Below, piece after piece: positions 4,698 through 4,808 of a stretch of DNA of 13,902 bases. Position 1 is the stretch's first letter, and each line of letters starts with the position of its first letter. A program made the position numbers and the translations under genes. The notes beneath the pieces were generated by a model. That model was not told the DNA's origin. It ran no database searches and worked only from the letters and a program-made list of their open reading frames with translations. Source of the stretch: a virus (lineage: Duplodnaviria > Heunggongvirae > Uroviricota > Caudoviricetes); the IMG/VR virus record IMGVR_UViG_3300029376_000363, one strand, 5' to 3'.

Positions 4698-4808
4698 GTT
4701 GGTTCAAAATACCGTGTTGTTGGTTCAGTGTTGGTTCAATAAAAAGAATAAAATCCTTATAAAACAATACTCTTTACAAATTGAACCAACTGAACCAACT
4801 GAACCAAC
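4698..4808. repeat. Iteron cluster around an AT-rich core; candidate replication origin
   Basis: GTTGGTTCA at 4698-4706, 4719-4727 and 4730-4738; reverse complement TGAACCAAC in tandem at 4782-4790, 4791-4799 and 4800-4808. They flank the AT-rich 4739-4781 segment, immediately 3' of the primase-helicase gene. Confidence 0.55.

What the first reader, a model, noticed from the sequence alone, without database searches (positions are those of the whole stretch)
4698..4808. Candidate replication origin: inverted iteron triplets around an AT-rich core
Three GTTGGTTCA copies and three tandem TGAACCAAC copies (9-bp period) flank a 43-bp AT-rich segment immediately 3' of the primase-helicase gene. 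Rep-adjacent iteron origins are the standard arrangement in P4-like and PICI-like satellites. The iteron sequence itself appears specific to this element.
Basis: partly seen in the sequence, partly recalled or inferred. Interest (0 to 1): 0.5.

Follow-up and report, generated by a model that had tools for sequence, protein, structure and literature searches.

The report
Satellite island replication origin (iterons)
This 111-bp stretch is very probably the replication origin of an EcCIMP1-type phage satellite island of E. coli: six binding sites for the island's own primase-helicase around an easily melted AT-rich core. It is a sound new example of a known design, not a new kind of element.

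Summary
GTTGGTTCA occurs six times in the window, all within 4698-4808: three spaced copies, a 43-bp core that is 84% AT, then three inverted 9-bp tandem copies. The array ends 25 bp after the stop codon of a 919-aa primase-helicase.

The window is an EcCIMP1-like phage-inducible chromosomal island (PICI) at tRNA-Thr next to proA in E. coli. The published description of EcCIMP1 does not mention an origin.

Evidence for an origin:
- **Same layout in relatives:** 31 of 33 homologous loci from other Enterobacterales have it at the same offset after the stop codon.
- **Iteron sequence changes by lineage:** the changes track a short segment of the protein's C-terminal domain.
- **Cassette swap:** a sister island (ETEC H10407) with the same flanks has a P4-alpha-type primase and different iterons.
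- **Tested precedent:** the origin of EcCICFT073 has the same design.

- The 9-mer is shared by relatives in several other genera.
- Most relatives carry a longer array of about 280 bp.
- Full islands hold a second, mirror-image cluster about 8 kb away, upstream of perC.

No binding or replication was tested. I file it as a new member of a known kind.

The parts
4782..4808 (-). Primase-proximal iteron set: three head-to-tail GTTGGTTCA copies (read on the - strand, the sense strand of the primase), 9-bp period.
   Evidence: The same tandem triple sits 24-27 nt after the stop codon in most homologous loci. E. coli LA3 has four copies.
4739..4781 (.). AT-rich core, the presumed DNA-unwinding region. 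It is 43 bp and 84% A+T, and contains the TTTTATAAGG-like motif that is shared across lineages with different iterons.
   Evidence: least stable 40-mer of the window. An AT-rich spacer of similar length is present in the relatives.
4698..4738 (+). Primase-distal iteron set: three GTTGGTTCA copies in the opposite orientation to the tandem set, at 4698, 4719 and 4730 (spacing 21 and 11 bp).
   Evidence: The 11/21 spacing is conserved in relatives. In NGF1 and in the perC-side cluster the 9-mers are kept while the spacers differ.
4809..4833 (-). 25-nt linker between the primase stop codon and the first iteron.
   Evidence: No intrinsic-terminator-like site was found here.
4834..7593 (-). Primase-helicase, the presumed initiator. 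It combines a P4-alpha-type Zn-ribbon and TOPRIM primase (aa 8-362), a DUF927 helicase related to SaPIbov Rep and Cch, and a C-terminal winged-helix domain.
   Evidence: Pfam. (33% identity to P4 alpha, N-terminal part only). (8tch SaPI Rep E 1.9e-8; 5dgk Cch E 7.9e-4).
4837..5196 (-). C-terminal domain (aa 800-919), predicted winged helix and presumed iteron reader.
4891..4935 (-). Segment aa 887-901 (GRGYQRKSPRIQGRQ) between the last two beta strands of the C-terminal domain. Its sequence tracks the iteron type.
   Evidence: Alignment, pair statistics, secondary structure.
4658..4668 (-). Conserved CCTGGCTGGCA motif just beyond the array, of unknown role. It lies close to the end of the swappable replication cassette, since homology with the ETEC H10407 island covers 4546-4651.
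   Evidence: A CYGGYHGG-type match lies 152-180 nt after the stop in 17 of 34 sequences scanned (the window plus 33 loci). Background is 0.26 per 400 nt. Cassette boundary.

Best explanation
The array is the primase-proximal replication origin of an EcCIMP1-type PICI.

Proposed mechanism (inferred):
1. When the helper phage induces the island, the AlpA-driven operon produces the 919-aa primase-helicase.
2. Its C-terminal winged-helix domains read the 9-bp iterons. Helicase rings assemble on the two oppositely oriented iteron sets.
3. The 43-bp AT-rich core between them melts.
4. The DUF927 (MCM-like) helicase loads itself, and the fused TOPRIM primase makes the first primers for host polymerase.

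Shown here: the sequence anatomy, its conservation, the co-variation between iteron and protein, and the fold of the C-terminal domain.

Inferred: binding, melting, helicase loading, and that initiation starts at this cluster.
For: (1) Anatomy: six exact 9-mers in two opposed sets around the least stable DNA of the window, 25 bp after the stop codon.

(2) Identity of the element: the island (int, AlpA-like HTH, AntA/B, Ash, primase, P22-type ejection-protein genes, PerC, between tRNA-Thr/proA and yagU) matches EcCIMP1. That island excises and is transduced by the P22-like phage Kapi1.

(3) Conservation of layout: 31 of 33 homologous loci with an ORF over 800 aa show iterons at the same offset, with a tandem set, an AT-rich spacer of about 43 bp and an inverted set at 11/21 spacing. 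The core differs by lineage: GTTGGTTCA, GTTGTCTCA, GTCGGTTCA, GTCGGTTT, ACGGGTTA, TGGGATA, TCCCTAC, TGTTCACC.

(4) Co-variation with the protein: QRKSPRI is invariant in all 15 loci with GTTGGTTCA or a close variant. It becomes QGRV-RE with GTTGTCTCA. Ser becomes Thr with GTCGG in two differently diverged backgrounds. The ACGGGTTA loci have K(R/K)KAL-type segments. Among pairs whose helicase region is 80-95% identical, identity in this segment averages 88% for the same iteron (n=72) and 54% for different iterons (n=90).

(5) Domain swaps: loci that keep the primase domain but carry a D5-type helicase and C-terminus have unrelated iterons. A full P4-alpha homologue (L033, 40% identity) carries P4's own TGTTCACC repeat.

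(6) Cassette swap in E. coli: ETEC H10407 has the same flanking modules but an alpha-type primase and CCTGTACCAC iterons.

(8) Precedent: the origin of EcCICFT073 was tested by plasmid maintenance with ori and pri-rep deletions. It has the same two-sets-around-AT design in the same position.

(9) Other small proteins of the cassette do not track iteron type.
Against: No experiment shows binding or replication for this element. The EcCIMP1 paper measured excision and transduction, not island replication, and transduction was very low.

Most relatives have a longer array of about 280 bp with 12-14 iterons. This island keeps only the first module next to the primase, so the array alone may not be sufficient.

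Full islands have a second cluster 8.1-8.5 kb away. In P4 the cluster next to alpha is crr, not the initiation site.

The co-variation is partly confounded by shared ancestry. For example, the four GTTGTCTCA loci are close relatives of each other.
Confidence: 0.8

Rival explanations
1. The array is a P4-crr-like auxiliary site. The initiator binds it, but it acts as a cis enhancer or looping partner. Initiation takes place at the mirror-image cluster upstream of perC, or needs both clusters.
For: In P4 the iteron cluster 46 bp 3' of alpha is crr, and ori lies 4.5 kb away. The window protein shares P4 alpha's primase domain. Full islands (L001, and the EcCIMP1-like island of NGF1) carry a second complete cluster with its own AT-rich core, 8.1-8.5 kb away. 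In ETEC H10407 the two iteron modules are separated by two genes.
Against: In compact relatives and in the tested EcCICFT073 origin, the AT-rich module lies directly after the rep gene. The helicase and C-terminal domain are of the SaPIbov Rep type, whose origin is directly 3' of rep. Both clusters have the same design, so nothing marks this one as the lesser partner.
Confidence: 0.12
2. The array is mainly a transcriptional control site. Initiator binding blocks or regulates read-through from the replication operon into the ejection-protein genes, or the inverted repeat acts as a terminator or RNA-stabilising hairpin.
For: In relatives and at the perC-side cluster, a tandem iteron triple abuts a promoter-like TTGCTTAT..TATAAT sequence just upstream of the next gene. 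A regulatory side-role for initiator binding is therefore plausible there.
Against: In the window no sigma-70-like promoter or intrinsic-terminator-like site falls inside 4546-4834 on either strand. No T-run follows the repeats. Rfam gives only sub-threshold hairpin matches. Regulation alone does not explain the conserved AT-rich core between two opposed sets.
Confidence: 0.05
3. The array is a packaging, partition or recombination site that serves the helper-phage-related module, for example a pac mimic for a P22-like terminase or a centromere-like site.
For: The island is moved by a P22-like helper and carries P22-related sequences. Repeat arrays around a core also occur at plasmid centromeres (my own knowledge, not tested here).
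Against: The iterons travel with the primase, not with the helper-related modules. ETEC H10407 keeps the same ejection-protein and Ash modules but has different iterons. The iteron sequence tracks the C-terminal domain of the primase. I found no partition genes in the island annotation.
Confidence: 0.03

Closest known systems
PICI/SaPI replication origins (SaPIbov1, SaPI1; E. coli EcCICFT073)
   Different: Iterons are 9 bp (SaPI: 5-6 bp) and have a different sequence. The initiator is fused to a P4-alpha-type TOPRIM primase, whereas SaPIbov1 and SaPI5 primases are AEP-type and the EcCICFT073 protein shows only D5-type helicase domains. A second mirror-image cluster lies about 8 kb away in full islands. 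Function has not been tested.
Satellite phage P4 ori/crr system with alpha protein
   Same: The primase domain is homologous (33% identity over aa 8-362). An iteron cluster with both orientations lies just 3' of the gene (crr). Iteron clusters are kilobases apart. Relatives with a true alpha-type C-terminus carry P4's TGTTCACC repeat at this position.
   Different: The helicase and DNA-binding part is DUF927 plus a SaPI-Rep-like winged helix, not D5_N/DUF5906/Pox_D5. The iteron differs. The P4 crr is two 120-bp direct repeats rather than two opposed triplets around one AT core.
SCCmec Cch / Cch2 helicase with downstream repeats
   Different: SCC elements are not phage satellites. Their repeats are fewer and direct. 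The primase is a separate protein pair.
Iteron plasmid origins (pSC101, RK2, R6K, F type)
   Same: Repeated initiator-binding sites lie next to an AT-rich unwinding region.
   Different: From my own knowledge, those origins use direct repeats of about 17-22 bp, a small dimer/monomer Rep that is not a helicase, and DnaA boxes and host DnaB loading. Here the sites are 9 bp, the two sets are inverted, the initiator is itself a primase-helicase, and the array contains no DnaA box: the nearest 1-mismatch match is at 4615-4623, about 75 bp away.

Membership tests
PICI/SaPI-type replication origin | Lies immediately 3' of the replication initiator (rep or pri-rep) gene | tested here: met
   The array starts 25 bp after the stop codon of the primase-helicase. 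Relatives have the same offset.
PICI/SaPI-type replication origin | Two sets of iterons, at least two per side, pointing in opposite directions around an AT-rich region | tested here: met
   Three plus three exact 9-mers around a 43-bp core of 84% AT.
PICI/SaPI-type replication origin | Cognate initiator is a self-loading helicase whose C-terminal winged-helix domain reads the iterons | tested here: inconclusive
   Fold and homology are met, and the iteron sequence co-varies with a segment of that domain. Actual binding cannot be tested with these tools.
PICI/SaPI-type replication origin | The rep-ori segment drives initiator-dependent autonomous replication | not testable with these tools
   This needs the plasmid-maintenance assay used for EcCICFT073.
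PICI/SaPI-type replication origin | Resides in a helper-phage-induced chromosomal island (int, alpA, pri-rep, no full virion gene set) | tested here: met
   Gene content and insertion site match. They correspond to EcCIMP1, which the paper shows to be induced and transduced by Kapi1.
P4 ori/crr | Type I octamer TGTTCACC bound by the C-terminal domain of alpha | tested here: not met
   The iteron is GTTGGTTCA. The C-terminal two thirds of the protein are unrelated to alpha.
P4 ori/crr | Two separate iteron clusters kilobases apart, both needed in cis | tested here: inconclusive
   Two clusters 8.1-8.5 kb apart exist in full islands L001 and L048. The second lies outside the window, and the need for both is untested.
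Iteron-plasmid origin | Array of direct repeats of about 17-22 bp with DnaA box(es) and a non-helicase Rep | tested here: not met
   The two sets are inverted 9-mers. No DnaA box lies in the array. The initiator is a primase-helicase.
Intrinsic transcription terminator | G+C-rich hairpin followed by a T run | tested here: not met
   No terminator-like site falls within 4546-4834 on either strand.

The most novel reading that the evidence does not exclude
The island uses a split, mirror-image origin. The primase-proximal cluster (in the window) and an inverted twin about 8 kb away, directly upstream of perC, bracket the P22-type ejection-protein cargo. The initiator bridges the two, as in P4 ori-crr looping. 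This would couple island replication to expression of the PerC-family virulence regulator, and would make the bracketed cargo an invertible or exchangeable cassette.
Probability: 0.2. Interest if true: 0.55.

Novelty: new member of a known kind. Interest (0 to 1): 0.35.

Why it matters
EcCIMP1-type islands sit in roughly a tenth of complete E. coli genomes. They carry a PerC-family regulator that silences LEE expression, yet their origin had not been described.

Knowing the origin and its reader gives three practical things:
- A defined target for testing whether these islands really replicate after helper induction.
- A natural series of matched iteron and protein-segment variants, such as QRKSPRI with GTTGGTTCA and QGRV-RE with GTTGTCTCA. 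This series could be used to work out how SaPI-Rep-type winged helices read DNA.
- A simple annotation rule (repeats within about 30 bp of the stop codon of a DUF927 or alpha-type primase) for finding satellite origins across Enterobacterales.

Tried and rejected
- **Terminator or promoter:** the consensus scan found nothing inside 4546-4834.
- **Known RNA:** the Rfam E-value scan gave only plant-miRNA hairpin matches far below their thresholds, which reflect the inverted repeat.
- **DnaA, IHF, GATC:** no DnaA box or GATC in the array. One 1-mismatch IHF-like match in the core was not pursued.
- **First structure model:** aa 690-919 with 7 near-identical sequences gave pLDDT 53, and I discarded it. 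A 14-sequence alignment of aa 800-919 gave pLDDT 83.
- **Phage database:** the window has only short patches of similarity to P22-like phages. It is not a phage genome.
- **Small cassette proteins as the iteron reader:** rejected, because their presence and identity do not follow iteron type.
- **Coding explanation for the 9-bp repeats:** rejected. The region is unannotated in RefSeq. NGF1 has a 10-bp insertion within the array. The repeats change by lineage while keeping number and spacing.
- **Literature:** a search for the 9-mer, and a search of the supplements of the 2018 PICI paper, found no earlier description.

Full report
**1.

The 9-mer GTTGGTTCA occurs on the + strand at 4698, 4719 and 4730. 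It occurs on the - strand at 4782, 4791 and 4800, as an exact 9-bp tandem. These six are the only exact copies in the window. Shuffles give a mean of 0.17, and none of 200 reaches 6. The 43 bp between the two sets (4739-4781) are 84% A+T, against 52% for the window. They contain the least stable 40-bp duplex of the whole window.

The array ends 25 bp after the stop codon of a 919-aa ORF at 4834..7593 on the - strand. That ORF has a primase zinc ribbon, a TOPRIM domain and DUF927.

**2. What the element is**

The region is present in about 580 of 5,426 complete E. coli genomes, and 330 of them hold nearly the full stretch. In an annotated copy the island sits between tRNA-Thr/proA and yagU. In order it carries an integrase, an AlpA-like HTH protein, an AntA/B protein, DUF4222, Ash, small ORFs, the primase, P22-type gp14/gp7/gp20/gp16-like ejection-protein genes, an Abi protein and PerC.

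This is the gene content and location of EcCIMP1. EcCIMP1 is a PICI of mouse E. coli MP1 that excises and is transduced when the P22-like phage Kapi1 is induced. The NGF1 copy even has the neighbouring MarR/Vat island described in that paper. The paper does not discuss an origin of replication.

**3. What is known about such origins**

The published work describes SaPI and PICI origins as follows. The origin lies directly 3' of rep. It consists of two iteron sets around an AT-rich region, with at least two iterons per side pointing in opposite directions. The iterons are read by a winged helix in the C-terminal domain of a self-loading helicase.

For the E. coli PICI EcCICFT073 this region was tested by plasmid maintenance with ori and pri-rep deletions. 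I read that origin in CFT073. It has CTGTCTACC iterons, two in tandem, then an AT-rich stretch, then an inverted copy, then further copies. It starts right after a D5-type primase gene.

**4. Comparative test**

A scan of species-representative genomes returned 39 loci that encode relatives of the primase. In 31 of the 33 loci with an ORF over 800 aa, repeats begin within 19-47 nt of the stop codon, and in most of them at 24-27 nt. The layout matches the window: a 9-bp tandem set, an AT-rich spacer of about 43 bp, and an inverted set at 11/21 spacing.

| Iteron core | Loci |
|---|---|
| GTTGGTTCA | Escherichia, Enterobacter, Klebsiella, Lonsdalea, Serratia, Cedecea, Tatumella |
| GTTGTCTCA | L009, L012, L013, L014 |
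| GTCGGTTCA | L019, L035, L041 |
| GTCGGTTT | L037 |
| ACGGGTTA | L017, L021, L040 |
| TGGGATA | L030 |
| TCCCTAC | L026, L028, L031 (alpha-type C-terminus) |
| TGTTCACC | L033, L034 (alpha-type C-terminus) |

A conserved layout with changing site sequence is what one expects of binding sites for a co-evolving protein.

**5. Which protein reads them**

Within the DUF927 group, the last 120 residues diverge most when the iteron differs. One short segment sorts cleanly by iteron type:
- QRKSPRI in all 15 loci with GTTGGTTCA or a close variant, from several genera.
- QGRV-RE with GTTGTCTCA.
- QRKTPRI or TRKTLRI with GTCGGTTCA. The Ser-to-Thr change appears in two differently diverged backgrounds.
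- K(R/K)KAL-type segments with ACGGGTTA.

Among pairs whose helicase region is 80-95% identical, identity in this segment averages 88% for pairs with the same iteron (n=72). It averages 54% for pairs with different iterons (n=90). Shared ancestry inflates this contrast, so I treat it as supporting evidence, not proof.

Loci that keep the primase domain but have a D5-type helicase and C-terminus carry unrelated iterons. L033, a full P4-alpha homologue (40% identity), carries P4's own annotated type I repeat TGTTCACC. The small ORFs next to the primase do not follow iteron type.

**6. Fold of the C-terminal domain**

A profile of the whole protein matches the SaPIbov Rep structure 8tch over aa 416-799 (E 1.9e-8), and Cch 5dgk.

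The protein is therefore a fusion of two known types: a P4-alpha-type primase (33% identity over aa 8-362) and a SaPIbov-Rep-type helicase with its origin-reading domain.

**7. The primase and iterons move together**

The ETEC H10407 island has the same Ash-side and ejection-protein-side modules. Between them it carries an alpha-type primase with CCTGTACCAC iterons. Homology to the window covers 4546-4651, just beyond the array. This argues against a packaging or helper-related role for the repeats.

**8. Variation inside E. coli**

- NGF1 has a 10-bp insertion that turns the 11-bp spacing into 21 bp.
- LA3 has four tandem copies.
- The 9-mers themselves stay exact.

**9.

(a) Most relatives have a longer array of about 280 bp. 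Its second module ends in another tandem triple beside a promoter-like sequence. The window keeps only the first module.

(b) Full islands (L001 and NGF1) carry a second complete cluster with its own AT-rich core. It is in mirror orientation, 8.1-8.5 kb away, and directly upstream of perC. An O111:H8 strain keeps only that cluster, next to perC. This second cluster lies outside the window.

(c) In P4 the cluster next to alpha is crr, and the initiation site is 4.5 kb away. Whether the window's array is the initiation site, one of two origins, or a crr-like partner is therefore open.

**10. Rivals considered and rejected**

These were a terminator or promoter, a known RNA, DnaA-dependent plasmid-type origins and a coding repeat. 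Details are in the 'tried and rejected' field.

**11. Verdict**

It is a well-supported prediction of the origin, or at least the initiator-binding array, of EcCIMP1-type PICIs. That makes it a new member of a known kind.

All functional steps (binding, melting, loading, priming) are inferred from homology, anatomy and co-variation. The experiments that would settle them are listed under next steps.

Noticed in passing
L001 7128-7248; L048 (NGF1) 4613-4733; L002 (O111:H8) 7984-8104. All lie outside the window.: A second iteron cluster (three spaced copies, an AT-rich core, three tandem copies, same 9-mer) in mirror orientation, 8.1-8.5 kb from the primase-side cluster. Its tandem triple abuts a promoter-like TTGCTTATCTATATAAT about 20 bp before the perC start codon. 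Together the two clusters bracket the ejection-protein and Abi cargo.
   Followed up: partly
window 10366-10472 (+ strand), inside the annotated 'ash family' ORF 9553..10620 (-): About 87% identity to the first ~110 nt of P22 gene 3 (small terminase). The match is on the strand opposite the Ash ORF, whose Pfam Ash domain covers only aa 124-232. This may be a remnant or decoy of the helper's small terminase, or a mis-called N-terminus of Ash.
   Followed up: no
window 2112-4071 (- strand): A phage satellite that carries P22-type gp14 (DUF2824), gp7 and gp20 ejection-protein genes, and gp16 in the full island, but no head, tail or terminase genes. The EcCIMP1 authors suggest a packaging role. 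The role of these genes in a satellite is unexplained.
   Followed up: no
window 4658-4668 (- strand): CCTGGCTGGCA motif about 160 nt after the primase stop. A match to CYGGYHGG at that position occurs in 17 of 34 sequences scanned, across different iteron types, and also in the alpha-type H10407 cassette. Background is 0.26 per 400 nt. It may be a priming or host-factor site.
   Followed up: partly
window 4546-4651, with palindromes at 4571-4589 (ACTACGAAAATTTCGTAGT) and 4627-4647 (TTTTACGAAAGTCTCGTAAAA): This stretch is shared at 91-94% identity with islands that carry a different replication cassette (for example ETEC H10407). It holds two related TACGAAA..TCGTA palindromes, which may be an operator or control region for the downstream ejection-protein operon.
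   Followed up: partly
L047 (ETEC H10407) about 5200-5320 and 6290-6440: In the alpha-type sister island the two iteron modules (CCTGTACCAC) are separated by two inserted genes of about 1 kb. This is an intermediate between the compact 280-bp arrays and the 8-kb split seen in EcCIMP1-type islands.
   Followed up: partly
L003 (NGF1) and L004 (LA3), aligned to window 4640-4860: Iteron polymorphism within E. coli: a 10-bp insertion changes one spacing from 11 to 21 bp, and a 9-bp insertion adds a fourth tandem copy.
   Followed up: yes
window 10989-10998: A run of 10 N (masked or unknown bases) inside the AntA/B-like ORF region.
   Followed up: no
L007 and L032 (contigs labelled Chryseobacterium sp. 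18061): Two contigs of a Bacteroidota-labelled assembly encode primases 68-78% identical to this enterobacterial one. L007 also carries GTTGGTTCA iterons. This looks like contamination or mislabelling of the assembly.
   Followed up: no
window 1504-1805: A 75% nucleotide match to a 'Clostridium phage NatCom' record over hypothetical genes. This is odd for an E. coli island.
   Followed up: no
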